Shown here: positions 5,174 to 42,683 of the stretch, piece by piece | How the letters are laid out: each line of letters begins with the position of its first letter | Numbering within the stretch: position 1 is the stretch's first letter | The notes under the pieces: generated by a model | Told to the model about the DNA's origin: nothing | What the model saw: only the letters and a program-made list of their open reading frames with translations | Database searches by the model: none | Position numbers and translations under genes: made by a program | IMG/VR virus record: IMGVR_UViG_3300045971_000013 | Span: 1-50,237 of that record | Source: a virus | DNA: 50,237 nucleotides | Reading direction: 5' to 3' (one strand)

Positions 5174-6763
5174 ATGTCTTTAACTAAAGTAACTAATTCG
5201 ATGATAACTGGCGCTCCAGTTAATGTGCTGGACTATGGCGCAAAGGGCGATGGGGTTACTGATGATCGTGCAGCTATCCAATCCGCGATTGATTACGCCA
5301 CTTCATTGAATCGTGCCGTGTACTTACCCGGAGGTCGCTACCGTATAAATAGTGCTGGAGTTACTTTTAGTGGAAAGGTTTGTGGACTCTACTTCAATAA
5401 CTTTGTTGCTGGCCCACAGTTTGGTAAACACCTTGAGATGTTTGGGGATGGTTACTATGCTACGGAGATATTTTGCGACAGTTCATCCCCCGGCATTGAT
5501 TACCTCATTGCTTCGATTGGATCAGGTGCTGGTGAAGGGCATTCAAATTATGCAGTGACTTGCTCTGGTACAGCTTCAACAAGCGTAACAACCAACCTAT
5601 ATGTCTCTGGTGGACCACAGAACATACGGGATATTTGGGCTGGTGGAGCAAAACGAGGATTCATGGGTGGTGATAACTATGTTGGATGCTACAGTGAGTT
5701 CGCTTCTGAATATGGCTTTTACTTCTATAACCAAGATGTTGCGTACCTAGTTAATTGTGCTACTGACGGTGCCGGTCTTGCTGGTATCTATATACAGGAT
5801 GACGTAGCTATAGAATTAACCTCACCAGAAACACAGGCTTTCTTTGGTGTTTCAGCTATCAACTGTAATTTCTATTCTGCTCAATCTGAAACAGGGGTTG
5901 GGGTCAAGATAGTTTCGGATCGCTATTCGTACACACACCATCAGTTTACAAATTGCACTTTTGGAAATAATGGGTTCCCACTTGGGGTGGTTAATCCGCT
6001 TGCATGGATTACGGCCTATGGTGCTTATATAACGAGCGCAAGTTCTGTTTCATTCACGAATTGCAAATTTCCTCTGTTGAAGTATGGAAACATTGTCCAA
6101 GGATGTGAGTCTGTTAATTTTACAAATTGTGTATTCTCAAAAACAGGTTACCTAAGCACCATAGCAACCACATGGCAATGTGCCGACTTAAGTATTGGCT
6201 CTAGCGCAAACAGTGTAATTATTATGGGCTGCGTGTTTGACACAACAGCAGGCTATGCAATCAACTCAACTGACTGCAAGAATCTCACTGTAATAGGCAA
6301 CACATTTACTGATGTAGCAAGTGGGGGATTGAACAGTAGCGGTGTGCGTGTGAATTTGACTAACGCTACAGTGGGTAACACAGCTATAGCAATCACTCCA
6401 GCGACTACGGTACAAACACTTAAAATAATTGACAACCATTTTGACTGCCCTACGATATACAACACAGGGAAGTATGGTATTAAGATTAATTGTTCTGTTG
6501 CAGTTCCCGCTGGTGGCCGCATCAAGATTAGTCAGAATACTGATTCTGGAACTTCTTTTGCGACCAATTACTCTGTAACTACAGCGACAGCAATACAGAA
6601 AAATGCTTGGAATGTAATAAACGATTCACTTGTAACTGCAACCCCACAAGGAATGCCAGCAGTTGCAGATGCAGATGCCCCCACATCGACAATCTACTAC
6701 TCTAGTACCGCTAGTAAGTTAGTTTGGAAAGATGCTGGAGGAGTCGTTAACAACCTTTACTAA
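5174..6763 (+). CDS. Second tailspike / depolymerase (pectate-lyase-like beta-helix)
   Basis: 529 aa; [27 protein letters not shown]...[10 protein letters not shown] motif; repeated N-x-x-F/I beta-helix rungs (FTNCTF, FTNCKF, FTNCVF). Confidence 0.7.
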
Positions 6764-11895: not shown

Positions 11896-13152
11896 ATGGC
11901 TAATCTAATGCAAGACATGGCCTCTGGGAGTGATGCAGCACTCCAGATGCAAAAGAACATGGTTGCTGCTCCTGATGTGCAACAGGCGCAAGCCAATGTC
12001 ATGCAGGAACAAGCTCTCAAGCTTGAACAAGAACGTGCTACGGTTGAGAAGACTAAGCTAGGTAACATCGTTACCGAGTCTGGTATCCAACTGGATAAAC
12101 AGAAGCAAGCTGCCATAGCTGCTCTTGAGAAGTCTGCTGGTTACGAACAACTCTCTGGCTCTGAGAAGGCTATGAAGCAGGCTATGACCATCATGTCATT
12201 TGATCCTGCTGCTGGTGGTAAGTTGCTTGATGCTGTTGCCGTTGCTGATCTTAAAGAAGCTCAAGCACAAGCTAAGACCTTGGACAATGCTCGTGAGCAG
12301 ATCAACATGGCTGCGTCTGTCATTGGTCAGTGGCCTGATGACAAGGTTGGTGAGAACTTTAAGAAGCTACCTGAAGCATCTCAGAAGGCAGTCATTGACA
12401 AGGTTGGTCAACAAGCTTGGGATGAGATGGATGGCAAGGCGAAAAAGAAGGTTGTGGATAACCTGTTCCTAAGTACGAACCAGAAGGTCCAAGAGCAACG
12501 TATGGCTCTGGATTTGGAGAAGACCAAGTTGCATAACGCTATGGAGCTTGAGAAGGTTCGTCTTCACAATCTCAGTACCATTGCTGCTAGAGAAGCTCGT
12601 GCAGGTAAAGCATCTAACATGTGGACCACTGCCAACAAAGAACTAGACTCATTGCGTAAGGACCCTGATCGGGTTAAGGCTCGTGAGAAGCTAGATGCTG
12701 ATGTAGAAGATGCCGAAGTTGCTGCTAAGAAGTCTACTTGGATTGGTGGCTATGAGTCTACTGATCCTAAGACCCAAGAGAAACAGACCTTCAATAGCAA
12801 GGCTGCTTATGACAAATGGCAATCTGCTGTTCAGAAGAGAGACAAGTACATTGCTAGTACTCTTGATGATGAACAAGCTATCATTGAGACTCTCCCGGAA
12901 GAAGCCAAGGAGATCAAAAACAACATGCTTGAGCGTGTTAAGAAGCAACGTCTAACGTTGTCTCCTGAAGATGCTCCTAAGCCTGCTCCCAAACCTGACG
13001 CTGGTACTCCTGCTCCTGCTGCCGATGTTCCTAGTAACAAGGGTGGTGATGGTACCCAAGGTAAGCCACTGGCTATGCCTGCTGACAAGTCTAAACTCGT
13101 GCATGGTAAGTACTATGATATTCCCGGCAAGGGACCCACTCTCTACAAATAA
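11896..13152 (+). CDS. Lys/Glu-rich coiled-coil internal virion protein with a Pro-rich C-terminus
   Basis: 418 aa; long helical K/E/Q/A composition; PKPAPKPDAGTPAPAADVP tail. Confidence 0.4.
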   Translation: MANLMQDMASGSDAALQMQKNMVAAPDVQQAQANVMQEQALKLEQERATVEKTKLGNIVTESGIQLDKQKQAAIAALEKSAGYEQLSGSEKAMKQAMTIMSFDPAAGGKLLDAVAVADLKEAQAQAKTLDNAREQINMAASVIGQWPDDKVGENFKKLPEASQKAVIDKVGQQAWDEMDGKAKKKVVDNLFLSTNQKVQEQRMALDLEKTKLHNAMELEKVRLHNLSTIAAREARAGKASNMWTTANKELDSLRKDPDRVKAREKLDADVEDAEVAAKKSTWIGGYESTDPKTQEKQTFNSKAAYDKWQSAVQKRDKYIASTLDDEQAIIETLPEEAKEIKNNMLERVKKQRLTLSPEDAPKPAPKPDAGTPAPAADVPSNKGGDGTQGKPLAMPADKSKLVHGKYYDIPGKGPTLYK

Positions 13153-25563: not shown

Positions 25564-26109
25564 TTAAAACGGGTTTGCTGCTTCATCAGCAGTGTCTTCT
25601 TTCAAGGCTTCTGCCATGTCCAAGTCACCTGCTGTGTAAGCTTCAAACTTACGAGCAAACCCAATCACCAAGTCCAAGGTAGTAGCTTCCAGTTCAAAGG
25701 GCTTCCCACCACGAGCAGCAATATAAAGGTCGGTAGCCCTAGCCAAAGCGTTCTGACGAACGATAGCCCGATCACCATGCAGAGCAGGGATAGGAAACAC
25801 CTTGGAGTAGCCACCTCCACCTCCGTAGGACTTCGTAGGAACAGCTACAGAGCCAACACCAGTTGCCTTGTCTACTGCCATAGTAATAGGAGCACTGCGA
25901 GAGATGATATTGACTGCCTTGGTCTCAAGACCATACGTGCCAGTGACTCCATCAAAATCCACCGTGTAGCCTGCTTCTACTCCGGGGTTCTTAAAGCCAC
26001 ATTTAACCCAAGCTCCATTAATCTTCATGGAGTAAGTGGGTTTCACACCAAACTTGGTGGTTACGTCTTTAGTGGATACGGCTTCCACAACGCCCGACAT
26101 CATGCTCAT
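25564..26109 (-). CDS. Putative ssDNA-binding protein
   Basis: 181 aa; beta-rich OB-like N-terminus, GGGGG linker, acidic C-terminal tail DLDMAEALKEDTADEAANPF ending in PF as in bacterial SSB tails; located in the replication module. Confidence 0.45.
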   Translation of the reverse strand: MSMMSGVVEAVSTKDVTTKFGVKPTYSMKINGAWVKCGFKNPGVEAGYTVDFDGVTGTYGLETKAVNIISRSAPITMAVDKATGVGSVAVPTKSYGGGGGYSKVFPIPALHGDRAIVRQNALARATDLYIAARGGKPFELEATTLDLVIGFARKFEAYTAGDLDMAEALKEDTADEAANPF

Positions 26110-26537
26110 AGTAAACTTTCTTTTTTCAGTTGATAGCGATTTCTTTGATACTCAGCTATACGTGCTTTGTTTTTTAGAGCGTATGCAACCATGTACGCTT
26201 TTGAGTGCGGCTTTCTGCCTCCAGTATAATTGGGGTGTGTAGTTCCGTGTATGTGTCTACCTTTATGAACCATGTCATATACGTTATCAGACTGTGTTCC
26301 TAGGAACAAATGGTCTGGATTGACGCAACTGGGGTTATCACATTTATGTAGAACCTGCATATTTGATGGAAGAGGTCCTACATGCGCCACATAAGAGGCA
26401 CGGTGTGCTCCAACTCTTAGACCATCTACACGTATGGAGCCATATCCATAGTTGTTAAAAGCGCCATACCACTCCCAACAACCTGTGTCAGGAATAGGTG
26501 CGTACCTAACCCTTAACTTTTCAATCAAAGTAGTCAT
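26106..26537 (-). CDS. HNH homing endonuclease (free-standing)
   Basis: 143 aa; GCWEW...NNYGYG...AHRASY...[22 protein letters not shown]. Confidence 0.8.
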   Translation of the reverse strand: MTTLIEKLRVRYAPIPDTGCWEWYGAFNNYGYGSIRVDGLRVGAHRASYVAHVGPLPSNMQVLHKCDNPSCVNPDHLFLGTQSDNVYDMVHKGRHIHGTTHPNYTGGRKPHSKAYMVAYALKNKARIAEYQRNRYQLKKESLL

Positions 26538-27125
26538 TATTCAACTTCCTTCATTTCATGCCAATTGATTCCGTAAGATGCTCCTGCATTGAGCTTCAGA
26601 GCTAACGGATGCTTAAATGTCTCTTCAAAGTACTTGTGTGTATTCTGTAACACCTCCTGTATGTCTAAGATAAATTCAACCAACTCTTCCTTAGTCACAT
26701 CGAACATCAACGAGTCGTGGATTGTGTTCAACATCTTCACACCTTCACGATGCCTAAACATCCTGAAGATCACACCTAACATCATCGGGACAATATCCCC
26801 CGTAGCCAACCCTTGTATCGGGTAGTTTTTCAATTCAGTCGGAGAGAAGTTGTAGTCGCTAGAAGACCAGCTACTATCGTTGTGATACTCCGTAAATACA
26901 AACTTACGACCAGTGAGAGTATTGTGTACGCAAGTACGAAATCTTTCCAATGATCCTTCGCTATCACGCAGATGCTTCGATTGTGTTTCTACTATCAAGG
27001 CAAAACTTTTGTGCCATTCACCCACTTGTGGGTAACGACCATAGAACACATCAACGAACTTCTTACCTTCATCCAAAGAGCATCCAGCTTGCTTGCTAAT
27101 AGCCTTGGCACCTGCACCATAAATA
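26537..27125 (-). CDS. Family A DNA polymerase, exon 2 (rest of motif B, motif C)
   Basis: Frame upstream of the annotated Met reads (L)IYGAGAKAISKQAGCSLDEGKK with an in-frame TAG only 4 codons further up; IHDSLMFDV = motif C. Confidence 0.8.
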
Positions 27126-27822
27126 CCTATTGTTCGCTAGGAGTCGTTAGTTCCTAACCGTCCTTACGGACTGCTGCATGTCCCCATGCAGAGCAGACTA
27201 TCTCATCATCCACTAGGGATGTTGTGCGCTTCCGGCTACTTAGCCGTACTCCCTTTCGGGATAGTCGTTACACCTTCAAAGGCTTTCCAACACTCATGTT
27301 CTACTTGGTGGCACCGTTTACAGACTGTCTCTAAGTTACTAAGAACATTGTTTGATCTATCTTCATCCTTGTGGTGAACGCACAAAAACTTAGTTGATCC
27401 ACAACGCTCACAAGCATCTTTACGCTGTTTACGATATATCCCAATACCTGTTTTGTATCCGGGATGTTCCTTACCAAAGTAAGGGTTGCCTCCTTTACCA
27501 CTACCTACTTTACAACCGCGTTTAATACGTTGGGTATAAGCATTTTTGCGACCGGCTTCTAATGTTGCTTGCTTAGAGCAAGACACACAATATTTAGCAG
27601 CAGGACCAGTAGGCACATACACTGTAGAACACTTTTTGCATTGAGAGGGTTGGAAGGTTCGCATCTTTACTCCATTGATTATGTTGTAAAGTGTATTGCT
27701 TAACCTTTGTTCCGGCAATGCTATTGAAAAATACTTCGCTTGGCTCGGTGTTGTCTGTTCTAGAGTTCCACCGAATTCACACAATTCTAATTACCCATTA
27801 CTGAGTAACCGGCCTATCGTTA
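27126..27822 (-). mobile_element. 697-nt group-I-like intron interrupting DNA polymerase motif B, carrying an HNH ORF
   Basis: Exon 1 ...KARTFQ(CT) + exon 2 (T)ATTTATGGT restores KARTFQLIYGAGA; exon 1 ends in U, intron ends in G; 1352+589 nt = 647 codons; GNRA-capped hairpins 27160..27171 and 27174..27191. Confidence 0.6.
27236..27664 (-). CDS. Intron-encoded HNH endonuclease
   Basis: Start taken at MRTFQPSQCKKC (GGAG 7 nt upstream); CERCGS...CVHHKDEDRSNNVLSNLETVCKRCH HNH core. Confidence 0.75.
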   Translation of the reverse strand: MRTFQPSQCKKCSTVYVPTGPAAKYCVSCSKQATLEAGRKNAYTQRIKRGCKVGSGKGGNPYFGKEHPGYKTGIGIYRKQRKDACERCGSTKFLCVHHKDEDRSNNVLSNLETVCKRCHQVEHECWKAFEGVTTIPKGSTAK

Positions 27823-29174
27823 AGCTGGAATGTACGAGCCTTGAAGGGCTTACGTTCTGCTTTGGTGGGGTACCTACCGAACATATCTTTGTATAGCTCT
27901 GAGTGGATGTCAGCACCCCCAGAGATGTCAGCAATCAGTTGCTTGTCTCCGGTAACGTGAGCAAGAGCCACAACTTCCAGTTGGTTGAAGTCAACCTCAA
28001 CAATGTAGCCACCATCGTAGCGAGATGTGAATATCTGCTTGATAGGGTTGTTGCTGATGTTCTGAAGGTTAGGACTAGTAGAAGACAAACGACCAGTAAC
28101 GGTTGCTGTGTGATTCAACTTGCCATGTATGTAGTCCCCAATCAGATGCTTGGAGAGTCCTTGCACGTAGGTAGATAGCTGTTTAGACAGTTCACGGTAC
28201 TTGAGCAAGGAGTTGATGATGATCTTCACCTTGGCATCGAACGTGTGATCAAGCATGTCATTGAGAACAGAATCATCAACGGACACTTGCTTAGTCTTGG
28301 CACTTACCTTGTCTGGATCAGGTGTGTACATCACTGCTGGTTTGAGCTTGATCTCACGATCCATTAGCTTGTACTTGGTGTTGCCATTCTTGTATGTGCC
28401 AACCTCTTCCTTCACCTTGACCTTCTTGGTACCTCCGAAGAAGTATTGAGACCATTGCTTAGGACTGTTGATGTCATCAATCAAGCCTGTGGATAACTCT
28501 TCCAAGTTGAGCTTGCACTCAACGTATTCGTTAACCACCTCTACTGTGTATTTGTCCAGTGCTTCTCTATCTATGTGGAGACCATTGAACATCATCTCAG
28601 TAGTTGCTTGAAGAGCTTCCATCTGTGTTTCTAGTAACACCAGTTGACCAGCTTCCTTTGCAGCAGCCCATTGGCAACGAGCAATCTTCCAAGTGACTTC
28701 TACGTCCTGTTTGAGATACGGGAGTAGCTCATCCATTGGAATCTTCTCGCTACCAAGTCCTGCTTGGAAGTAAGCTTTGATCTTGTCTTCCTTGAGAGGA
28801 AAACCGTACTTCTTAGCCAACTCATCAAGAGAAGAGAACTTGCTACGTTGTCCTGTAAGAATGTATTCAGCTATCTGGGTGTCCCACACTTTAGAAGACT
28901 GAATAATCTCTTTCATTTCTGGGTCAGTCCTAAAGAGATACAACATATCAAAAGAGAAGTTGTGCCCACAAAACACTGAGAAGGGCGTATAGCTCTTCAG
29001 TGCGGCTTTGTAGAAGGCAGGGTTCTCATAATAAGTCACACCTTCTCCGGTGCTTATAGTGATGCCAAATGCAACTACCCTGTTGTCAGGGTGCATAGGA
29101 TGGGCTAATCCTACGTCTTCGTTTCCGTTGAGTGTAGTCTCAACATCCACCGCTATAAAGGTGGGGAGGGTCAT
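27823..29174 (-). CDS. Family A DNA polymerase, exon 1 (3'-5' exonuclease, motif A, first half of motif B)
   Basis: FIAVDVETT (Exo I), HNFSFDMLYL (Exo II), YLKQDVEV (Exo III), VEVDFNQLEVVALAH (motif A), ERKPFKARTFQ (motif B start); the unspliced frame stops 8 codons after the junction. Confidence 0.85.
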
Positions 29175-35345: not shown

Positions 35346-35540
35346 CTATTTGTCGAACTCCGACATCTCTCCATCGTAGAACCAATCAAGGTAGGCATAG
35401 ATGCCAGCGGCAAATACGCTGTCTGTTGGATTCCATTCTTCTAACCCAGCTTCTTCAAGAGTGAGGACCTCAACTTTACCGCAGTCCTCAACATCTAAGT
35501 AGTCCAAAGCACCATCTGTTCCATTGCATTTTTTCATCAC
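35346..35540 (-). CDS. Small strongly acidic early protein
   Basis: 64 aa; 16 D/E versus 4 K/R by hand count. Confidence 0.5.
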   Translation of the reverse strand: MMKKCNGTDGALDYLDVEDCGKVEVLTLEEAGLEEWNPTDSVFAAGIYAYLDWFYDGEMSEFDK

Positions 35541-35995
35541 TAACTCCTGTTTGATATAAGTTTTTGTTTACGACGATGTTCTTGCGCCCATAGTCGTGCT
35601 CGTTCTCTAACTGTCTCTTTATTTTTCTCTCTCCAAGCTCTTTGGTAAGCTAGATTGTCATCACACAACCCACCTTTCCAATTCCCACTGCCCTCTCGTT
35701 TTGCATTTCTACCTTTGAGAACCATGTCAGCCATGTTCTCTTGATGTGTTCCTAAGAACAAGTGATCTGGATTCACACAGGCTCGGTTATCGCAAGTGTG
35801 TAGTACACACATTCCATTTGGAATAGGGCCTTTGAACATTTCATAGGCTGCTCTATGCGCCCTAATGTTTTTCTTTGTTTTTATAGAAAATAGACCATAA
35901 CCGTTTGTATTTTTACAACCAGTAAATGTCCAACAACTGTCTATTTCTTGTTTGATACGGCGCTCAAACCGAAATTGATCTGTTTCGTTATACAT
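35540..35995 (-). CDS. HNH homing endonuclease
   Basis: 151 aa; [14 protein letters not shown]...AHRAAY...[22 protein letters not shown]; paralogous in pattern to 26106..26537. Confidence 0.8.
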
Positions 35996-36699: not shown

Positions 36700-36880
36700 A
36701 CCGGAGGGCGCTGCCTCACGGCCCCCGCAGGGAAAGGGCCGGGAGCAAGCCCGACCCTATTGTTGTAAAGACGCCGAGGGCGTCGCAGCCCGTATGCCAA
36801 ACGGCTTGGCCGTTGGCATCTCGGGGTGTCAGCCCGAGGCCGATAGGACGAGGGGTAGCATCCAGAGTGTTGATACCGTA
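36700..36880. repeat. GC-rich hairpin cluster 1
   Basis: GGGCCGGG/CCCGACCC (36736..36757), GACGCC-GAG-GGCGTC (36770..36784), ATGCCAAACGGC-TTG-GCCGTTGGCAT (36794..36819), CTCGGG-7nt-CCCGAG (36820..36838). Confidence 0.7.
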
Positions 36881-36891
36881 GAGGTACCGCA

Positions 36892-36905
36892 TGTTCCTAG
36901 TAACA
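36892..36905. promoter_or_regulatory. CTAG quasi-palindrome TGTTCCTAGTAACA, intergenic
   Basis: Exact copy between the early-cassette terminator and hairpin cluster 1; preceded by TACCGCATGTT, which recurs at 38170. Confidence 0.55.
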
Positions 36906-37030
36906 TTTGAGGAGGGGTAAGAAGAAGATTGGAGAGATATAGGCATAGCAATAGCCAATGAAGAAGAAGAAAGTGTTAGCGACTAGCGCAACAGCGCCAA
37001 CGGTGCTGTGAGCACCTAAAAGCGAACACG

Positions 37031-37049
37031 AAAAAGGGGCCGAAGCCCC
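37031..37049 (-). terminator. Rho-independent terminator of the first early gene
   Basis: Minus strand GGGGC-TTCG-GCCCC followed by TTTTT, 14 nt after the stop of 37063..37308. Confidence 0.75.
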
Positions 37050-37062
37050 TAGGTGGTCGTAA

Positions 37063-37308
37063 TCAATCTGCTTTGCGTGCCAACCAAGCCGCTGCTTGAG
37101 CATCCTTACGAGCCGCAACGAGGAGCTTGAGAGAGTTAGCCACCTCGCGGAAGTCTGCCTCGCAGGACTCGCCACGCTCTTCCATCTCGAAGATGGCTCC
37201 ACGCAGCAAGGTAGCTGCGAAGTTGAGCTTGGTGCCGACAGGCTGGTTGCCAGTCAAGCTCTTGAACTGGTCGTTCAGTGCGAAGTAAGCGTTTTTGTCT
37301 TGGGCCAT
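37063..37308 (-). CDS. First early protein (81 aa), function unknown
   Basis: AGGAGAG RBS; own terminator; GC/CpG-rich codon usage unlike most of the genome. Confidence 0.55.
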   Translation of the reverse strand: MAQDKNAYFALNDQFKSLTGNQPVGTKLNFAATLLRGAIFEMEERGESCEADFREVANSLKLLVAARKDAQAAAWLARKAD

Positions 37309-37324
37309 GTTTCTCTCCTAGGTA

Positions 37325-37555
37325 GGTTATGAGGGGGATAAGCCCCCCTCACAAACGCCCCTGCCGGGGGCTTGGGTCGTTCGAACCGCTTGGCGGTCGG
37401 ACGAGCTTGTGAATGCAGTAAGGGCTTTAGCCCCAAGGTCGTGACAGGTTCTTCGTGACCGCTTGGCGGCACGGAGGTTCTGGCGCGATTACTGCGGAAG
37501 CGCCAACCGCTTGGCGGTGGCGGTGGTCACAACCCCCCAACGGGGCTGGGGGGCT
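37325..37555. repeat. GC-rich hairpin cluster 2
   Basis: GAGGGGG/CCCCCTC (37331..37350), GCCCC/GGGGC (37357..37371), three C-TTG-G triloop hairpins (37385..37397, 37455..37472, 37502..37521), CCCCCCA/TGGGGGG (37533..37553). Confidence 0.7.
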
Positions 37556-38000
37556 TAACACACCATAACCAACCAAGGAATAAGAGAAACCTACAATGGC
37601 CCTGACACAAACCTTACCTTCATATGCACTCAATGATCTTGTTCAAACTAGAGCTATGACAGGCGAGCAGTCCTTCGATCAGTACCAACTCAACTCGACA
37701 GCTACCTCGTGCGTATGAGATGCAATCCGAATGGTAGAGCTATTGCGTGAGACCTGAACGAGGTAGTACTCCGACGAGATGGCTCTACTCACCAAGCCCT
37801 CTATGCGAGCTACGGATAGGTGCCAAGCAATAGGTTGAGAGAGCTACTGCAACGTTAGAAGACTAGGGACTGACAGACCCTAATGGTGAGCAGAAGAAGC
37901 AGAGGAGATAGATGAGAATGCGTATCAACTAGCAACTGATTGAACATACAGTGGGGGGAGATAGGTTGTTAGCAGATAAAGCTGCTCAATAGAACACAAG

Positions 38001-38022
38001 CTGTGGATAACCTGTGGATAAC
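38001..38022. promoter_or_regulatory. Two tandem perfect DnaA boxes (11-bp direct repeat CTGTGGATAAC x2)
   Basis: TGTGGATAA at 38002..38010 and 38013..38021 is the exact complement of the TTATCCACA consensus; 11-bp spacing. Confidence 0.7.
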
Positions 38023-38203
38023 ATCGACGCTGCTAATAGACAGACGTTAGGCGTAGAAGAGAGGAGATAGGGGGAGTTGTAGCCTAGCCGTACCTCTAAG
38101 TAGTAGTAGAGAGGGTAGGGGGGAGCAAATGTAGTTCTGTGTTAATTTACTTAACAAGGTTTACAACGCTACCGCATGTTTCTAAACAAGAGGGGGTTGT
38201 TGA

Positions 38204-38217
38204 TGTTACTAAGAACA
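38204..38217. promoter_or_regulatory. Degenerate CTAG motif TGTTACTAAGAACA in the control region
   Basis: 13 of 14 match; a second, shortened copy TGTTTCTAAACA lies at 38177..38188. Confidence 0.4.
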
Positions 38218-38544
38218 GTACTTAGTAAGTAGGCTCGTCCCTACGCTTCGACAGAAGCTACGGTGCTACGCACCTTGGGACTCGCTACAAGGATTCTGTT
38301 CACCTCTGTAAGAGGGTAGCTACTAATAAGAAGGGTCCCCTGTGGGACCCTATTAATACTGCTATGTTATATACCTGACCAGAAAAATAGAAAAACAGTA
38401 AAAAGAAAAAAGAATGGTTGCATTGTAGAAAAGTACAAAAACCTGTCAAGTCTTATTTTTCAACTAAAAACCCTAATGGGTTTCCATACAGTACTCCTGT
38501 AAAGGATAACATAGTACACTCCGCTTCATTGTAAGGAGATAGAC

Positions 38545-39063
38545 ATGCGTAGAGACAAAGCTAGAGACAAGCGTTACACCAAGGCTGTATGGAACCAGAG
38601 CCAGAAGCTTCAGGCTGTAAGTACTTGGTTGATGTTGGGCAACATGGCAGAGGTTGCTGTGGTTACGGGTATCCCTCTACCTACTCTTAAAGCTTGGAAG
38701 ACAGCAGACTGGTACAAAGATGCTTGTCTTCAACTTCAACAAGAAGACCTTCAGCAGACTAGTGCAAAGCTCAAGAGGATTGTTGAGAAGTCTCTTAAGG
38801 CTGTAGAAGACAGACTTGACTTGGGAGATGCTCAGTACGATCAACGTACTGGTGCAATCATTCGTATCCCTGTTAAGGCTCAAGTAGCCTTGAAGATCAG
38901 TACCGAACTGATGGCTAAGAGGGAACACATTGAAGGCAATCCCCAGAAGGAAGAAGTAGAGAAGACCATTGATGATCGTCTGTTACGACTATCGGAGGAG
39001 TTCTCTAAGTTCGCTATGTTGAAGGCTAAGGTTATTGACGTAGAGACTGTTGAGGTCAAGTGA
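38545..39063 (+). CDS. Small terminase subunit candidate
   Basis: 172 aa; first gene of the plus arm, immediately upstream of terL; N-terminal HTH-like MAEVAVVTGIPLPTLKAWK, coiled C-terminal half. Confidence 0.5.
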   Translation: MRRDKARDKRYTKAVWNQSQKLQAVSTWLMLGNMAEVAVVTGIPLPTLKAWKTADWYKDACLQLQQEDLQQTSAKLKRIVEKSLKAVEDRLDLGDAQYDQRTGAIIRIPVKAQVALKISTELMAKREHIEGNPQKEEVEKTIDDRLLRLSEEFSKFAMLKAKVIDVETVEVK

Positions 39064-39078
39064 CCGGATAGAAGTTAA

Positions 39079-40599
39079 ATGACCAAGTTGAACGCAGCAG
39101 TCATGGAGGGCTTCATCAACTCGGTGTTGAGAAGCAACTTCGATAAGCCTGCTGATACCCCCAGTTTTCACCGAGAGGTGTGGGAACTTGTTACTAGTAA
39201 CAATAAGCAGGTAGCCATAGCAGCACCTCGTTACCATGCCAAGAGCACAGCAGTAACCCATGCCTATACCCTAGCTTCAGTTCTATTCCGGGAGTCTCGC
39301 TATGTCCTTATTGTGTCGGATACAGTTACACAGGCTGTTCAATTCCTTGGAGACATCAAGAAGGAACTCTTGGACAATGAGGACCTTAGATCGTTGTTCT
39401 CAGTATCTAGCTTCCCGAAAGACACGGAAGATGATCTCATCGTCGAGATGGAAGATGGACACACTTTTCGCATACAGGCGAAGGGCAGCGAACAAAAACT
39501 TCGCGGTCTTAAATGGGCTAACCTCCGACCAGACCTAGTGATAGGTGATGACATGGAGAACGACGAGATTGTGATGAACAAGGATCGTCGTATGAAGTTC
39601 AAGAGGTGGTTCTATGGTGCTCTCATTCCTTGTATCTCTTCTAGTGGCAAGATTCGCATTGTCGGTACGATCCTACATTTGGACTCCCTTCTTGAGAACC
39701 TTATGCCCAGTTCTCAACTTAGCACTCTACGAGGTAATGGTAAACCCTTACTAATCCAAGAGGACTTGAAGGAGTACACGGACCATAAGCTACCTTGGAA
39801 GTCTGTGAAGTACAGGGCACATACGGATGACATGAAGAAGCTCTTGTGGCCCGAGATGAAGTCTGCGGAGCAGTTCAGGCTTCAGAGAGAGGACTACATA
39901 CGTCAGGGTCTAGCTGATGTGTACTCTCAGGAGATGTTGAACATCCCCTTGGACATCACGGACACCTTCTTTAAGAAGACTGACTTCGTACCCATGAAGC
40001 CAGAGGATGATAAGAAGCGTTTGGTCTACTATGCCACTTGTGACTTGGCTGTATCTCAATCCCAGAGGGCTGACTACTCTGCTTTTGTAGTGGGTGGTAT
40101 GGATGAGGAAGGCAGGTTGTACTGCAAGCATGTCATTAAAGAACGTATGGACGCTTTGGAGATTGTCGATACAATCCTGATGATCCAAAAGATTTATAAG
40201 CCCGTACTCTTTGGTCTTGAACAGGGTACTATCCAGAAAGCTATTGGTCCGGTTCTCAATGGTGAGATGCTAAAGCGAGGTGAGTTTATTTCTACTGTGC
40301 TGCTCAAGCCTAGCGGAGATAAGCTGACTAGAGCACGTAGTATCCAAGCCCGTATGAGAAGTGGAGCATGTAAGTTCGACAAGAACGCAGACTGGTACCA
40401 AGGATTTGAAGACGAGCTTCTTCGGTTCCCACGGGACAAACATGACGATCAGGTTGATGCTTGGGCTTATCTTGGTCTCATGCTCGACAGGATGTGGGAA
40501 GCTCCAACCGACAAAGAAGTAGAGGCCGAAGAGTACGATGCTTATGTACGAGATAACCAAGGGGCCAATGATGGGCGCTCCGTAACCTGTGGGTACTGA
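39079..40599 (+). CDS. terL: Large terminase subunit
   Basis: 506 aa; AIAAPRYHAKST (Walker A-like), LVIGDDMENDE (Walker B), nuclease half with YATCDLAVS and KHDDQVDAWAY. Confidence 0.85.
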   Translation: MTKLNAAVMEGFINSVLRSNFDKPADTPSFHREVWELVTSNNKQVAIAAPRYHAKSTAVTHAYTLASVLFRESRYVLIVSDTVTQAVQFLGDIKKELLDNEDLRSLFSVSSFPKDTEDDLIVEMEDGHTFRIQAKGSEQKLRGLKWANLRPDLVIGDDMENDEIVMNKDRRMKFKRWFYGALIPCISSSGKIRIVGTILHLDSLLENLMPSSQLSTLRGNGKPLLIQEDLKEYTDHKLPWKSVKYRAHTDDMKKLLWPEMKSAEQFRLQREDYIRQGLADVYSQEMLNIPLDITDTFFKKTDFVPMKPEDDKKRLVYYATCDLAVSQSQRADYSAFVVGGMDEEGRLYCKHVIKERMDALEIVDTILMIQKIYKPVLFGLEQGTIQKAIGPVLNGEMLKRGEFISTVLLKPSGDKLTRARSIQARMRSGACKFDKNADWYQGFEDELLRFPRDKHDDQVDAWAYLGLMLDRMWEAPTDKEVEAEEYDAYVRDNQGANDGRSVTCGY

Positions 40600-40601
40600 C
40601 A

Positions 40602-42683
40602 ATGAAACTCAAAGACTCCTTTAAGCTGAGTGATCTGGTCTATGAGACCAATATCGCTAACCTCCTTTGCAAAGCTGACTTGGAGGCTATTGGGTCTCAG
40701 GTTGTCAAAGACTATGACGTAGATTTGATCTCACGATCATCTTGGGAGAAGCGAACAGAGGCAAGCTTGAAGCTTGCTCTTCAGGTTGCTGAAGCTAAGA
40801 ACTTCCCTTGGCCCAATGCTTCTAACGTCAAGTTCCCCCTCATCACCATTGCTGCTCTTCAGTACCATGCTCGTAGCTATCCTGTACTTATAGACAGTGA
40901 TCTGCCTGTGAAGTGTCGGGTGATTGGTCAAGACCCTGGTGGTGTTCGTAAGATGAGAGCAGAGCGTGTTGAACAGCACATGAGCTATCAACTGCTTGAA
41001 GAGGACGAAGACTGGGAATCTGAGATGGATAAGGTTCTGATCACACAGCCTATTGTTGGTTGTGCTTTCAAGAAGTCTTACCGTGATCCAGTTAAGAAGC
41101 ACAACATCTCTGAGAATGTTCTAGCCAAAGACTTGGTTGTGAACTACTGGACTAAGAGCCTAGAGAGTGCTCCCCGTATCACCCACGTACTCCAGATGTC
41201 TCGCAATGAGATTTATGAACGTACTGCTCGTGGTACTTGGTTGGAAGGTATCTCTGAAGGACACCAACAGTCTGATGCTTCTATGCTCACAACTAGTGGC
41301 TTGCAGAATGCTCAAGACAAAGCCCAAGGTTTAACTCCTCCTGATCGTTTGGACTCTAGTACTCCTATCGAAATCCTAGAGCAACATTGCTTCATTGACT
41401 TCGATGATGATGGCTATGCAGAACCTTACATTGTGTACGTCCGTAAGGACAACAAGAAGGTAGCCCGTATCGTTGCTCGGTACTCTAGTGATGACATTGA
41501 GACTGACAAAGAAGGAACTGTTCTCTCAATCAAAGCAGAACAGTACTTCACCAAATATCCTTTCGTACCTTCTCCTGATGGTGGCTTCTATGATCTTGGC
41601 TTTGGCGTGTTGCTTGGCCCTCTTAACGAGTCTATCAATACGATCATTAACCAACTGGTTGATGCGGGAACAATGGCTAACACGGCAGGAGGGTTCCTTT
41701 CTCGTGGTATCAAACTACGTGGGGGTAACTATTCTTTCAATCCTATGGAGTGGAAGCATGTTGATACCACAGGTGATGACCTACGCAAAGGCATCGTTCC
41801 ACTTCCTGTGCGAGAACCTAGTGCAGTACTATTCACTCTCCTTAACCTTCTGATCAACTACGGTGAACGTGTTGGTGGTTCGGTAGACATCCTCACTGGT
41901 CAAAACCCCGGACAGAACACTCCTGCTGAGACTACCCGCACTATGGCAGAGCAGGGTATGAAGGTGTTCAATGGCATCTTCAAACGTACCTACCGTTCCC
42001 TCAAGCAAGAGTTCCGTAAGCTGTACCGCTTGAATCAAATCTACATCAACGAAGATCAAGAGTACGTTTCCAATGCTGATGGTGAAGGTGTGGTCTTGAT
42101 GAAAGACTACGAAGGTCCTGTTACGGATGTCATGCCTACGGCTGATCCAAGCATTACCTCTGACTCTCAACGTCATGCCCAAGCAGCAGCCATTGCTATG
42201 CGGGTTAAAGAAACTCCCGGCTTGTATGACCGCTACCAAGTGGAACGTACATTCCTCAAGGCTATGAAGTTCCCTGACATTGAACGAGTACTGCCTGATC
42301 CGAAGGGTCCTCATGCCGTTGCTCCTCCTGTCAATCCGAAGGTACAGATTGAACAGATGAAGATGCAAGCCAAGCAAGCTTCTGATCAACTCGACATGAA
42401 GATGGGATTGATGAAGCTTATGGCTGATGCAGAACTTAATCAAGCCAAGATTCAGAAGCTAGAAGCAGAGGCAGAAGCCATCAAGATTGGTATTGCTACC
42501 GAAGGTGAGCAGATGCGTCTTAACCAGATCAACACGGAAATCGCTATGCAGCGTGAACGCCGTGATGGTGTCTTGAGTTCCATACAGACCATGAACAGTG
42601 TGTATGAAACCATGATGAAGGGGCAACAGATTGCCCATGACATGAGAGGTGATTCGGAGGCACCCACATCCCCCGCTAAGTAA
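40602..42683 (+). CDS. Portal protein
   Basis: 693 aa directly after terL; size, position and coiled-coil C-terminal barrel-like tail. Confidence 0.7.
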   Translation: MKLKDSFKLSDLVYETNIANLLCKADLEAIGSQVVKDYDVDLISRSSWEKRTEASLKLALQVAEAKNFPWPNASNVKFPLITIAALQYHARSYPVLIDSDLPVKCRVIGQDPGGVRKMRAERVEQHMSYQLLEEDEDWESEMDKVLITQPIVGCAFKKSYRDPVKKHNISENVLAKDLVVNYWTKSLESAPRITHVLQMSRNEIYERTARGTWLEGISEGHQQSDASMLTTSGLQNAQDKAQGLTPPDRLDSSTPIEILEQHCFIDFDDDGYAEPYIVYVRKDNKKVARIVARYSSDDIETDKEGTVLSIKAEQYFTKYPFVPSPDGGFYDLGFGVLLGPLNESINTIINQLVDAGTMANTAGGFLSRGIKLRGGNYSFNPMEWKHVDTTGDDLRKGIVPLPVREPSAVLFTLLNLLINYGERVGGSVDILTGQNPGQNTPAETTRTMAEQGMKVFNGIFKRTYRSLKQEFRKLYRLNQIYINEDQEYVSNADGEGVVLMKDYEGPVTDVMPTADPSITSDSQRHAQAAAIAMRVKETPGLYDRYQVERTFLKAMKFPDIERVLPDPKGPHAVAPPVNPKVQIEQMKMQAKQASDQLDMKMGLMKLMADAELNQAKIQKLEAEAEAIKIGIATEGEQMRLNQINTEIAMQRERRDGVLSSIQTMNSVYETMMKGQQIAHDMRGDSEAPTSPAK

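What the first reader, a model, noticed from the sequence alone, without database searches (positions are those of the whole stretch)
37640..38544. About 0.9 kb ORF-free stretch at the divergence point with two tandem perfect DnaA boxes and an A-tract-rich segment
No ORF of 60 aa or more exists on either strand between 37633 and 38545, which is unusual for a phage packed this tightly. The stretch contains the 11-bp direct repeat CTGTGGATAAC twice. This gives two perfect DnaA boxes (TGTGGATAA at 38002..38010 and 38013..38021) one helical turn apart. My scan found only mismatched versions elsewhere in the genome. Downstream, at 38380..38470, lies an A/T-rich segment with six A5-6 tracts and one T5 tract, a candidate unwinding or bending element. 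A GGGTCCC/GGGACCC hairpin sits at 38333..38350. The location between the replication arm and the packaging arm fits a DnaA-dependent origin. Alternatively it could be a site that titrates or recruits host DnaA for transcriptional control.
Basis: partly seen in the sequence, partly recalled or inferred. Interest (0 to 1): 0.65.

Follow-up and report, generated by a model that had tools for sequence, protein, structure and literature searches.

The report
Host DnaA docking site in phage
A lake phage carries two perfect, adjacent binding sites for the host replication initiator DnaA in a long non-coding stretch ahead of its replication genes. The same 20 bases are kept unchanged in many diverged relatives, so they are functional, most likely as an accessory part of the phage's replication origin and early control region.

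Summary
CTGTGGATAAC occurs twice in tandem at 38001-38022, giving two perfect DnaA boxes with a 2-bp gap. This is the 'double DnaA box' geometry that E. coli DnaA needs in vivo, and the 11-mer is identical to oriC R1 and R4.

The true non-coding stretch is 37309-38544 (1236 bp). In 86 related freshwater phage loci, 19 of 51 distinct homologous regions have a perfect double box and 5 more have 1-2 mismatches. The double boxes occur in 8 flank contexts that are almost randomised. None of 255 control windows comes close.

The boxes lie in a swap-zone where other lineages carry other protein-site cassettes. On one side is an IHF-consensus site, degenerate in this window. On the other is a newly defined 88-bp core (38112-38198): an AT-rich centre between G-runs, found in 66 loci, with no RNA structure. 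A conserved leftward sigma-70 promoter (38449-38422) transcribes through all of it towards the replication genes. No phage initiator was recognised.

Best reading: an accessory host-DnaA site in an origin and early-control region (about 0.5). Main rival: a DnaA roadblock on early transcription. Function was not tested.

The parts
37309..38544 (.). Full non-coding stretch (1236 bp) between the first leftward early gene and the terS-like gene. It is probably the transcribed leader of the leftward early operon and the origin/early-control region.
   Evidence: ORFs. (first-gene family). (only one sigma-70-like promoter in 36800-39000). (no Rfam match).
38001..38022 (+). Tandem 11-mer CTGTGGATAAC x2, a 'double DnaA box' with a 2-bp gap. 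The 11-mer is identical to E. coli oriC R1 and to the reverse complement of R4.
   Evidence: E. coli oriC read. Conserved in 22 related loci.
38002..38010 (+). DnaA box 1. TGTGGATAA on the + strand, which is the canonical TTATCCACA on the - strand.
38013..38021 (+). DnaA box 2. TGTGGATAA on the + strand, which is TTATCCACA on the - strand.
37953..37975 (+). G-run plus a degenerate copy of 'module A'. In relatives module A is GGGGG..TAAGTTRTTGATW, a perfect IHF consensus WATCAANNNNTTR on the - strand. In the window the IHF consensus is lost.
   Evidence: 36 of 51 regions have it. (no IHF consensus in the window's stretch).
38112..38198 (+). 88-bp family-wide core element: GGGTAGGGGGG-AAAT, T/A-rich spacer, TTAC..TTACAACGCT.., TTTCTAAACAAGAGGGGGTT. 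It is an AT-rich interior between two same-strand G-runs and a candidate unwinding or protein-assembly element.
   Evidence: nhmmer finds one copy, always in + orientation, in 66 loci. No consensus RNA structure on either strand. It is the AT maximum of the family-average profile.
38204..38217 (.). TGTTACTAAGAACA, a one-mismatch copy of the genome-wide 14-bp palindrome TGTTMCTAGKAACA. The same palindrome appears in the cassette zone of several relatives.
38332..38351 (-). GC hairpin (GGGTCCC/GGGACCC) with a weak T tail on the - strand. It is a leftward terminator-like or attenuator hairpin between the promoter and the core.
   Evidence: Clear leftward terminators sit at the same place in L003 and L005 and in about 18 of 61 loci.
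38370..38415 (+). Conserved TATACCTGA plus a homopurine A-tract block. The family consensus is the mirror repeat AAGAAAGAAAA-CAGT-AAAAGAAAGAAG. It lies immediately downstream of the leftward promoter, so it is the initial transcribed region.
   Evidence: (50 loci).
38422..38449 (-). Leftward sigma-70 promoter P_L. The -35 TTGACA is at 38449-38444 and the -10 TACAAT at 38427-38422 (11 of 12 matches). The inferred start is near 38415.
   Evidence: The -35 (CTTGTCAAG on +) and the A2/T6 of the -10 are conserved in about 50 loci, with the promoter block 55-224 nt right of the core end.
37063..37308 (-). First leftward gene (81 aa). It is a diverged member of a conserved 72-77 aa family (MSQQSNFDFNAFN..KPAGLQIFLAQQLLSNALW). 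Function unknown.
   Evidence: No PHROG or Pfam hit.
37331..37354 (.). GAGGGGG..CCCCCCTC hairpin just upstream of the RBS of the first gene. It is conserved in relatives.
   Evidence: I11. (CCCCCTCA 8-mer in 14 of 36 non-redundant regions).
37384..37518 (.). Three copies of the small palindrome AACCGCTTGGCGGT in the GC-rich part of the leader. Relatives have other small GC hairpins here.
   Evidence: D1..
37035..37050 (-). Intrinsic terminator after the first leftward gene (AGGGGCTTCGGCCCCT followed by TTTTTCG).
38545..39063 (+). terS-like first rightward gene, followed by TerL (39079-40599) and portal (40602-42683).

Best explanation
The pair at 38002-38021 is a genuine high-affinity 'double DnaA box' maintained by selection.

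It lies about 395-410 nt downstream of the only conserved sigma-70 early promoter (P_L, 38449-38422, leftward) and about 700 nt upstream of the first early gene. That places it in a zone where related phages carry interchangeable protein-binding cassettes. The zone is flanked by an IHF site (degenerate in this window) and by a family-wide 88-bp core with an AT-rich interior between G-runs (38112-38198).

The most likely role is that the stretch is the phage's origin and early-control region, and that the boxes recruit host DnaA as an accessory factor. This is how DnaA boxes work in P1, F, pSC101 and RK2 origins. There, DnaA helps to shape or open the neighbouring AT-rich element and to bring a DnaB-type helicase to it. 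DnaA might also stall P_L transcription next to the core so that a transcript can activate or prime the origin, as in T4, T7 and lambda.

Shown here: the sequence, its geometry, its conservation and enrichment, the module order, the promoter consensus, and the absence of a recognisable phage initiator.

Inferred: DnaA binding, origin activity, and every mechanistic step after binding.
For: - Geometry. There are two perfect boxes with a 2-bp gap. E. coli DnaA occupies almost only such double boxes with 2-3 bp spacing in vivo (PMC11317965). The 11-mer equals oriC R1 and R4.
- Selection. A perfect double box is present in 19 of 51 distinct homologous regions, and 5 more have 1-2 mismatches. None of 255 control windows has 3 or fewer mismatches. 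Box density is 320-fold higher inside than outside.
- Flanks. There are 8 flank groups with flank identity of 0.59-0.61, against 0.55 for shuffled sequence, yet all 18 box positions are invariant. DnaA-box 8-mers occur in 14 of 36 non-redundant lineages.
- Origin-like context. The stretch is at the divergent junction next to the DnaB-like helicase, Toprim primase, split PolA and 5'-3' exonuclease genes. No initiator, loader or integrase was recognised.
- IHF site. The IHF consensus occurs once, in a fixed orientation, in 36 of 51 regions. The boxes lie 45-60 nt to its right.
- Core. The 88-bp core is in 66 loci, always in the same orientation, with no RNA structure. Its interior is the AT maximum of the region (mean 74%, up to 85%) between G-rich dips.
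- Distant relatives. The Alcaligenes phage vB_Af_QDWS535 and a Manatee Spring phage have about 100 bp of (TA)n-like DNA plus short iterons and a similar G-block at the same junction.
- Promoter. A conserved promoter points into the core, with its block 55-224 nt from the core end.
- Precedents. Plasmid origins combine DnaA boxes, IHF and a DUE, and DnaB is first placed at the DnaA boxes (PMC4980987). DnaA also stimulates transcriptional activation of ori-lambda, and DnaA sites lie downstream of pO (PMC3985674).
Against: - About half of the homologous regions have no DnaA box and carry other cassettes: CGTGAAACA x2, an ATGAGAATnATTCTCAT palindrome, TGCYTA..TAAGCA palindromes, or the phage's own TGTTMCTAGKAACA palindrome. 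DnaA is therefore dispensable for the family. Operator-like palindromes fit regulation at least as well as replication.
- Three lineages carry the pair inverted (L134, L145, L179).
- There are only two boxes and no array of weaker sites.
- By the oriC rule the DUE lies 5' of TGTGGATAA. In the window that side is not AT-rich, and no convincing DnaA-trios are present. The core lies on the other side, at a variable distance of 12-137 nt.
- The window's core interior is the least AT-rich of the family at 65%. Its lowest-GC segment is the promoter and A-tract, not the core.
- GC skew follows gene orientation only, with no independent replication signal.
- No coverage, read-end or RNA data could be obtained. 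Runs were available only as contigs and no RNA runs were found.
Confidence: 0.5

Rival explanations
1. Transcriptional control. The double box is a DnaA roadblock or attenuator inside the long leader of the early leftward operon. DnaA bound about 400 nt downstream of P_L would stop or slow RNA polymerase before it reaches the replication genes. Early expression would then be tied to the host's DnaA status. In other lineages other DNA-binding proteins would do the same job at the same slot. A weaker variant is that DnaA binds the UUAUCCACA repeats in the RNA.
For: - P_L is the only sigma-70-like promoter in 36800-39000. It is conserved in about 50 loci and points through the core and boxes to the first gene.
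- The boxes lie between the promoter and the first gene in every lineage.
- The cassettes that replace them look like operators, being palindromes or direct repeats.
- The orientation is the same in 8 of the 11 lineages that carry a pair.
- DnaA roadblocks to elongating RNA polymerase are documented (Schaefer and Messer 1988/1989, cited in PMC11317965 and PMC10950094).
- Double boxes are the normal form of DnaA regulatory sites (PMC11317965).
- A DnaA-dependent RNA 'rDnaA box' attenuator has been reported (PMC10989985).
Against: - This reading does not explain the universally conserved 88-bp AT-rich core, the IHF site, or the (TA)n and iteron architecture of distant relatives.
- No other promoter was excluded experimentally, so the leader may not be transcribed in full. 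About a third of loci have a terminator between P_L and the core.
- Three lineages have the pair inverted, which would be awkward if the block is polar.
- This reading is not exclusive of an origin role. A stalled transcript next to a DUE is how several phage origins are primed.
Confidence: 0.27
2. Host takeover by DnaA sequestration or modulation. The amplified phage genomes would act as a datA- or DARS-like sink or catalyst for host DnaA, using a double box plus an IHF site. This would shut down or deregulate host chromosome initiation.
For: - High-affinity double boxes lie next to an IHF site in relatives. E. coli datA and DARS2 also combine DnaA boxes with an IHF site (PMC10950094; own knowledge for DARS2).
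- Perfect double boxes, often in clusters of 3-13 boxes, occur in at least 119 IMG/VR contigs. Phages that target DnaA may therefore be common.
Against: - There are only two boxes per genome, and the window itself has lost the IHF consensus.
- Half of the relatives lack the boxes.
- The fixed position inside a structured control region suggests a local (cis) role rather than simple titration.
- The box arrangement that defines datA and DARS was not compared in detail.
Confidence: 0.08
3. The conserved non-coding elements (the core and the A-tract block) are the packaging signal (pac or cos) upstream of terS, and the DnaA boxes are an unrelated neighbour.
For: - The elements lie 130-430 nt upstream of the terS-like gene, in a fixed orientation.
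- From my own knowledge, G-rich ends and intrinsically bent A-tract DNA are features of some cos and pac sites, for example P2 cos and SPP1 pac.
- Many metagenomic contigs end in this region.
Against: - TerL is of the Mu-like headful type. The cultivated relative was deposited as a circular record that starts inside TerL. Both argue against fixed cos ends.
- Contig ends are scattered over about 400 nt of the hypervariable cassette zone rather than piled at one base. This pattern fits assembly breaks at strain variation.
- The A-tract block is explained by the promoter it adjoins.
- This reading says nothing about why the DnaA boxes are conserved.
Confidence: 0.1
4. Chance or neutral repeat. 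A recent 11-bp tandem duplication happens to match the DnaA consensus.
For: Two other perfect boxes occur in coding DNA of the same genome, so single perfect boxes can arise without an obvious role.
Against: - Exact conservation of the 20-mer in 8 flank-divergent lineages, a 320-fold local enrichment, and none of 255 control windows with 3 or fewer mismatches.
- It is the only exact tandem 11-mer in the genome.
Confidence: 0.02

Closest known systems
DnaA boxes of theta-type plasmid and plasmid-prophage origins (P1 oriR, F ori2, pSC101, RK2 oriV)
   Same: One to four consensus DnaA boxes, two in tandem in P1, sit beside an AT-rich unwinding element and often an IHF site. Host DnaA acts as an accessory factor and as the first landing place for the DnaB helicase (PMC4980987). 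The position and orientation of the boxes matter.
   Different: Those origins have iterons for a Rep initiator encoded next to them. No Rep-like gene was recognised here, and the window has no clear iteron array beyond four GGAGATAG copies. This phage is apparently lytic, with no integrase or partition genes, and has its own helicase, primase and PolA.
E. coli 'double DnaA box' sites (oriC low-affinity arrays, mioC, purH, polA, DARS2; Stringer, Fitzgerald and Wade 2024, PMC11317965)
   Same: Head-to-tail 9-mers are separated by 2 bp, or by 3 bp in relative L179. Both boxes are needed for occupancy in vivo. The repeat unit equals the R1 and R4 11-mer.
   Different: Both boxes are perfect here, whereas most chromosomal double boxes have one weak half. 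The site is on a phage, in a transcribed leader rather than at a promoter.
Bacterial basal unwinding system (BUS: tandem DnaA boxes, GC spacer, DnaA-trios, AT-rich region; PMC8287927, PMC10721633)
   Same: Tandem boxes with a gap of 3 bp or less. Several relatives have a short GC cluster (CCCC or GGGC) abutting the box and AT-rich DNA beyond it.
   Different: In the window no run of three or more good trios starts within 16 bp, and the DNA on the oriC-defined side is not AT-rich. The conserved AT-rich core is on the other side at a variable distance. TAG repeats (GTAGTAGTAG, 38100-38109) are on the wrong side.
Transcription-activated or transcription-primed phage origins (lambda pR/pO with DnaA, PMC3985674; T4 oriF/oriG, T7 primary origin and lactococcal phage c2 ori, from my own knowledge)
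   Same: A strong promoter points into an AT-rich element a short distance downstream, in a non-coding early region. The phage has a T7-like replisome (PolA, helicase, primase) and no classical initiator. In lambda, DnaA binds near pO and stimulates transcriptional activation of the origin.
   Different: No R-loop or primer evidence exists here. The leftward transcript would be pyrimidine-rich (C-runs, CU tract), which does not favour stable RNA-DNA hybrids. Lambda has the O-protein iterons, which are absent here.
Predicted phage origins with DnaA boxes from Ori-Finder-type annotation (for example Pseudomonas phage vB_PseuGesM_254, PMC11512268)
   Same: An AT-rich non-coding region with DnaA-box matches next to replication genes.
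   Different: Those are single-genome predictions with degenerate boxes. Here the boxes are perfect, paired, and supported by a phylogenetic footprint across dozens of relatives.

Membership tests
Double DnaA box (DnaA dimer site) | Two 9-mers matching TTATCCACA, head-to-tail | tested here: met
   Both are 9 of 9 matches and lie on the same strand.
Double DnaA box (DnaA dimer site) | Gap of 2 or 3 bp between the boxes (PMC11317965) | tested here: met
   The gap is 2 bp (CC) in the window and in 22 related loci, and 3 bp in L179.
Double DnaA box (DnaA dimer site) | Actual occupancy by DnaA | not testable with these tools
   This needs EMSA, footprinting or ChIP. The host is unknown; the genome-contig scan found nothing.
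oriC-type basal unwinding system (BUS) | Three or more DnaA-trios (NAN, consensus 3'-GAT-5') starting within 16 bp of the box on the correct side | tested here: not met
   In the window, 5' of the boxes, only CAA-TAG-AAC can be phased after a 6-nt spacer, and nothing convincing follows (rule from PMC8287927; side). Some relatives, such as the L113 group (TAG TAC TAA), are better, but the pattern is not consistent.
oriC-type basal unwinding system (BUS) | AT-rich unwinding region beyond the trios | tested here: not met
   37940-38000 has a GC content of about 43-45%. The AT-rich core lies on the opposite side.
Iteron-plasmid-type origin with accessory DnaA boxes | DnaA box or boxes adjacent to an AT-rich DUE | tested here: inconclusive
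   The core interior is 65% AT in the window and 74% on average in the family. It lies 12-137 nt from the boxes, about 90 nt in the window.
Iteron-plasmid-type origin with accessory DnaA boxes | Iterons plus a cognate Rep initiator gene | tested here: not met
   No Rep-like protein appears in Pfam or PHROG scans of the early genes. The only repeat is GGAGATAG x4. Some relatives have CGTGAAACA direct repeats.
Iteron-plasmid-type origin with accessory DnaA boxes | IHF site in the origin | tested here: inconclusive
   It is present in 36 of 51 related regions but lost in the window.
Transcription-primed phage origin (T4/T7/c2-like) | Promoter directed into a DUE a short distance downstream | tested here: met
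   P_L is at 38449-38422, with its inferred start about 215 nt from the core end in the window. In about 50 loci the promoter block lies 55-224 nt from the core end.
Transcription-primed phage origin (T4/T7/c2-like) | Persistent RNA-DNA hybrid, or an RNA 3' end used as a primer | not testable with these tools
   No RNA or raw-read data were available. The predicted RNA is pyrimidine-rich, which argues weakly against this feature.
Replication origin (any kind) | Initiation of DNA synthesis maps here, or the fragment replicates autonomously | not testable with these tools
   Only assembled contigs were available for the sample. GC skew is confounded by gene orientation.
DnaA transcriptional roadblock | Box or boxes inside a transcribed region downstream of a promoter | tested here: met
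   This is met by sequence inference only. The boxes lie 393-412 nt downstream of the inferred P_L start and upstream of the first gene.
DnaA transcriptional roadblock | Active orientation of the box relative to transcription (Schaefer and Messer 1989) | not tested
   The paper (PMC400993) is not held. In the window the non-template strand reads TTATCCACA. Three lineages are inverted.
cos/pac packaging site | Defined or preferred genome ends at the site | not testable with these tools
   No raw reads were available. The Mu-like TerL and the circular record of the cultivated relative argue against cos.
Structured non-coding RNA | Conserved secondary structure with covariation, or an Rfam match | tested here: not met
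   There is no Rfam match at E of 1 or less. RNAalifold predicts 0 pairs for the core on either strand across 49 sequences.

The most novel reading that the evidence does not exclude
The stretch between the IHF site and the 88-bp core may be a plug-in slot. In this abundant family of lake phages, the same origin and early-leader scaffold would accept interchangeable docking cassettes for different DNA-binding proteins. These include the host DnaA double box, CGTGAAACA repeats, a Fur-box-like palindrome, and the phage's own TGTTMCTAGKAACA site. Any tightly bound protein there would serve as the anchor or roadblock that couples early transcription from P_L to opening or priming at the core. Lineages with the DnaA cassette would then license their replication by the host's initiation status. 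The at least 119 unrelated viral contigs with perfect double DnaA boxes suggest that exploiting DnaA in this way is a widespread and largely undescribed phage strategy.
Probability: 0.25. Interest if true: 0.75.

Novelty: new variant of a known kind. Interest (0 to 1): 0.55.

Why it matters
How lytic phages with T7-like replisomes but no recognisable initiator start replication is mostly unknown outside a few model phages. Uncultivated freshwater phages have not been studied in this respect at all.

This work gives a precisely delimited and testable control region. It contains a perfect host-DnaA dimer site with unusually strong comparative support, an IHF site, a new 88-bp core present in 66 related loci, and a conserved early promoter.

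If the boxes act in initiation, replication of these phages is wired to the host's initiator. That would affect host range, dependence on host growth state, and possibly host replication shut-off. If they act as a roadblock, this is a new example of a phage reading DnaA as a physiological signal.

Cassette swapping at a fixed slot offers a natural experiment on how origins or leaders change their protein partners. Perfect double DnaA boxes in more than 100 other viral contigs show that the question reaches beyond this family.

Tried and rejected
- **DNA similarity.** The region has no match in 50,697 deposited phage genomes.
- **RNA families.** Rfam gave nothing at E of 1 or less, and there are no tRNAs.
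- **Structured RNA.** RNAalifold on 49 core sequences gave 0 pairs on both strands. A structured-RNA reading of the core is rejected.
- **Hidden or decayed genes.** Only ORFs of 49 aa or less lie inside the stretch. The 65-aa and 68-aa ORFs at its left edge have no PHROG match.
- **BUS and DnaA-trios.** Checked by hand against the published rule. The window does not meet it.
- **IHF site.** Absent from the window although common in relatives.
- **Rightward promoters.** I looked for one using the IHF site's TTGAT as a -35 element. It is not consistent across lineages.
- **Cassette type against neighbouring leftward genes.** No correlation was found. The first gene (the p76 family) is nearly identical in lineages with and without boxes. 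Only 4 kb per locus was available.
- **Phage initiator, loader or integrase.** None appeared in PHROG or Pfam scans of about 30 proteins.
- **Host identification.** The TerL scan of 185,579 genomes gave no relative.
- **Reads.** The three runs holding the sequence exist only as contigs, so no coverage slope or read ends could be obtained. No RNA runs were found.
- **cos reading of G-block 1.** Contig ends do not pile up at one position.
- **GC skew as an origin signal.** It follows gene strand only.
- **Orientation rule for DnaA roadblocks.** The paper is not held.
Full report
**What the window is.** The 50,237-nt window is a circular assembly whose first 127 nt equal its last 127 nt, so the genome is 50,110 bp. 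It is a tailed phage from a pond metagenome. Rightward structural and packaging genes (terS-like 38545-39063, TerL 39079-40599, portal 40602-42683) run round to about 20.8 kb. A leftward early arm occupies 21.1-37.3 kb. It encodes a CobT-like/AAA pair, a Toprim primase, a DnaB-like helicase, a family-A polymerase split by an HNH ORF, a 5'-3' exonuclease and a resolvase-like nuclease. No integrase, Rep/O-type initiator or helicase loader was recognised. The region has no DNA match among deposited phages. The nearest cultivated relative by TerL is Alcaligenes phage vB_Af_QDWS535 at 52% amino-acid identity.

**Check of the observation.**
- The ORF-free stretch, the tandem CTGTGGATAAC repeat (38001-38022), the two perfect boxes (38002-38010 and 38013-38021), the A-tracts (38380-38470) and the hairpin (38333-38351) are all present.
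Perfect boxes also lie at 12453 and 28488, inside coding ORFs.
- Four perfect boxes against 0.44 expected gives P of about 0.001. The pair is the only exact tandem 11-mer in the genome.
- The two ORFs at the left edge (37275..37472 and 37427..37633) look spurious. The first real leftward gene starts at 37308 with a good RBS and belongs to a family conserved in relatives.
- The non-coding stretch is therefore 37309-38544, 1236 bp.

**Relatives.** A terS search of IMG/VR gave 4 loci. A TerL scan of metagenome contigs gave 80 loci from freshwater lakes, with TerL identity of 70-90% and many contigs of 43-50 kb. Only three islands of the window's non-coding stretch are alignable to them:
- 37951-38022, a G-run/'module A' plus the boxes.
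- 38099-38210.
- 38357-38415.

**The boxes are under selection.**
- The 20-mer TGTGGATAACCTGTGGATAA (GC linker in L168) is exact in 22 loci, in the same orientation, 1.3-2.3 kb upstream of TerL.
- Among 51 distinct 260-nt regions upstream of the core, the best head-to-tail double box has 0 mismatches in 19, one in 4 and two in 1. None of 255 control windows from the same loci has 3 or fewer mismatches.
- Perfect boxes occur at 3.47 per kb inside these regions and 0.011 per kb outside.
- The bearers fall into 8 flank groups. Their 60-nt flanks align at 0.59-0.61 identity against 0.55 for shuffled sequence, yet all 18 box positions are invariant.
- In 36 non-redundant regions, DnaA-box 8-mers are present in 14.
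- Three lineages carry the pair inverted. L134 and L145 have TTATACACA-nn-TTATCCACA, where the first box is the oriC R2 variant. L179 has a 3-bp gap.

**Geometry.** A 2-3 bp gap between head-to-tail boxes is what E. coli DnaA requires for detectable occupancy in vivo; these are the 'double DnaA boxes' of PMC11317965. The repeated 11-mer is identical to oriC R1 (cCTGTGGATAACa) and to the reverse complement of R4. I verified this by reading E. coli oriC between mnmG and mioC.

**Anatomy of the region, + strand from left to right.**
1. The first gene (37308 leftwards) is preceded by a conserved GC hairpin and a GC-rich leader with small hairpins.
2. Module A follows. In relatives it is GGGGG..TAAGTTRTTGATW, a perfect IHF consensus on the minus strand. 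It is present once, always in the same orientation, in 36 of 51 regions, at 2.35 per kb against 0.05-0.15 per kb elsewhere. The window's copy (37953-37975) is degenerate, and the stretch has no IHF consensus.
3. A variable cassette zone comes next. In box-bearing lineages the pair lies 45-60 nt right of the IHF site. Other lineages have CGTGAAACA direct repeats, whose reverse complement recurs as iterons in the Alcaligenes phage. Others have an ATGAGAATnATTCTCAT palindrome (also in the Manatee Spring phage, with a half-site at 37912-37919 in the window), TGCYTA..TAAGCA palindromes, GCTATA/TATAGC repeats, or the phage's own 14-bp palindrome.
4. An 88-bp core (38112-38198) lies 12-137 nt right of the boxes. 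It is present once, in a fixed orientation, in 66 loci. It has two same-strand G-runs around an AT-rich interior, which averages 74% AT, reaches 85%, and is 65% in the window. It is the AT maximum of the family-average profile. RNAalifold finds no pairs on either strand and Rfam finds nothing, so it acts as DNA.
5. A leftward terminator-like hairpin (38351-38332) is present in only about 18 of 61 loci.
6. A conserved TATACCTGA plus homopurine block (38370-38415) abuts a leftward sigma-70 promoter. The promoter has -35 TTGACA at 38449-38444 and -10 TACAAT at 38427-38422. It is the only sigma-70-like site in 36800-39000 and is conserved in about 50 loci, with the block 55-224 nt from the core end. 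The A-tract segment is thus the initial transcribed region of this promoter.

The whole 1.1 kb is probably the leader of the early operon.

**Interpretation.** I rate at about 0.9 that the pair is a real DnaA-binding site kept by selection. This rests on sequence geometry and comparative data, not on a binding assay. What DnaA does there is inferred.

The origin and early-control reading (0.5) is favoured by these points:
- The position next to the replication genes.
- The lack of a recognisable phage initiator.
- The IHF site.
- The universal AT-rich core between GC clamps.
- The (TA)n plus iteron architecture at the same junction in distant relatives.
- A promoter aimed at the core.
- Plasmid precedents in which DnaA boxes, IHF and a DUE cooperate and DnaB is first placed at the boxes (PMC4980987).
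- The lambda precedent of DnaA-stimulated transcriptional activation of the origin (PMC3985674).

Against a simple 'DnaA-dependent origin' are these points:
- The boxes are absent from about half of the family.
- They are replaced by operator-like cassettes.
- Three lineages have them inverted.
- There are only two boxes.
- By the oriC rule the unwinding element should lie 5' of TGTGGATAA. In the window that side is neither AT-rich nor equipped with DnaA-trios, so it is not a BUS (PMC8287927).

The main rival (0.27) is a DnaA roadblock or attenuator on the early leader. DnaA roadblocks are documented (Schaefer and Messer, cited in PMC11317965 and PMC10950094), and the cassettes would then be interchangeable blocks. 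The two readings are compatible if a stalled transcript next to the core is what activates or primes the origin.

The other readings rate lower:
- A datA/DARS-like DnaA sink: 0.08.
- A pac/cos role for the core and A-tract: 0.1. The Mu-like TerL and the circular record of the cultivated relative argue against it.
- Chance: 0.02.

**Wider context.** By my own rough estimate of the collection's size, only a few would be expected by chance. The linkers are CC (75), CT (32) and GC (12). In 72 of 104 evaluable loci, three or more boxes lie within 150 nt on either side. Some of these may be prophage-adjacent or plasmid-like DNA. Even so, paired DnaA boxes appear to be common in viral sequence. Published phage cases are either model systems (lambda, P1) or single-genome Ori-Finder predictions (PMC11512268).

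**Limits.** There are no binding, replication, transcription or read-end data. The host is unknown. Only about 4 kb per related locus was examined, so co-variation of cassette type with distant genes could not be tested.

Noticed in passing
window 2679, 7320, 13027, 15877, 24516, 26296, 33755, 36893, 39190, 44096, 46329 and others; near-copy at 38204-38217: A 14-bp palindrome, TGTT[A/C]CTAG[T/G]AACA, occurs about 25 times in the genome. The 9-mer CTAGTAACA alone occurs 19 times. Copies lie in both coding and intergenic DNA, several of them 10-30 nt upstream of start codons. It is conserved in relatives: one copy lies about 110 nt into TerL in nearly all loci, and it often sits in the cassette zone beside the DnaA boxes. 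It is probably the site of a phage-encoded dimeric DNA- or RNA-binding regulator.
   Followed up: partly
window 38112-38198; 66 related loci: A previously undescribed 88-bp conserved non-coding element (G-run, AAAT, T-rich spacer, TTATAACGCTGC, TTTTAAACAAAGGGGGG). It has a fixed orientation and no RNA structure. It is the most widely conserved non-coding feature of this phage family.
   Followed up: yes
window 38370-38415; family consensus in 50 loci: There is a homopurine mirror repeat (consensus AAGAAAGAAAA-CAGT-AAAAGAAAGAAG) immediately downstream of the early promoter. Mirror repeats of this kind can form triplex (H-DNA) under supercoiling. The window copy is imperfect. The leftward RNA would begin with a conserved CU-rich tract.
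   Followed up: partly
window 37331-37560: The GC-rich part of the leader is made of small GC hairpins. They include GAGGGGG..CCCCCCTC just before the RBS of the first gene (conserved in relatives), three copies of AACCGCTTGGCGGT (37384, 37457, 37505), and CCCCCCAACGGGGCTGGGGGG (37535-37555). Relatives have different small GC hairpins at the same place.
   Followed up: partly
window 26106-29174 and 35540-35995: The family-A DNA polymerase is split into two ORFs (27798-29174 and 26537-27076) by an HNH endonuclease ORF (27236-27784). Further HNH endonuclease ORFs lie at 26106-26537 and 35540-35995.
   Followed up: no
window 37063-37308 (-) and homologues in about 47 loci: The first early gene encodes a small, highly conserved protein family of 72-77 aa (MSQQSNFDFNAFN..KPAGLQIFLAQQLLSNALWSMEKYDNPR..). 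It has no Pfam or PHROG match. The window's 81-aa copy is unusually diverged. It is followed by a strong intrinsic terminator (37050-37035).
   Followed up: partly
IMG/VR loci L182-L300: Perfect double DnaA boxes (TGTGGATAA-NN-TGTGGATAA) occur in at least 119 unrelated viral contigs. They are often part of arrays of 3-13 boxes at an 11-bp period. The linker is strongly biased to CC or CT.
   Followed up: partly
L001 (Alcaligenes phage vB_Af_QDWS535) 8500-8700; L002 (Manatee Spring phage) 6560-6760: Distant relatives have about 100 bp of almost pure (TA)n-like DNA at the homologous junction. It is flanked by short direct repeats (TCGTGTT(T/C) x5 and CCTCGG x3), which is a classical iteron-plus-DUE look.
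   Followed up: partly
window 37904, 37957, 38063, 38535: GGAGATAG occurs four times within 640 nt, all on the + strand. There are 6 copies in the whole window against 1.3 expected. The last copy is the terS ribosome-binding site.
   Followed up: no
relatives L003, L005, L109 and about 21 of 36 non-redundant loci, just upstream of terS: Most relatives have one to three small lysine-rich genes (for example MATGKKSPAWQRKEGKS..KKWKC) between the promoter region and terS. The window lacks them and goes straight to terS.
   Followed up: no
cassette zone about 130-400 nt upstream of the core in many metagenome contigs: Contig ends are about five times denser here than in the neighbouring 2 kb, by my rough count. 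This is most simply explained by assembly breaks at a strain-hypervariable zone.
   Followed up: partly
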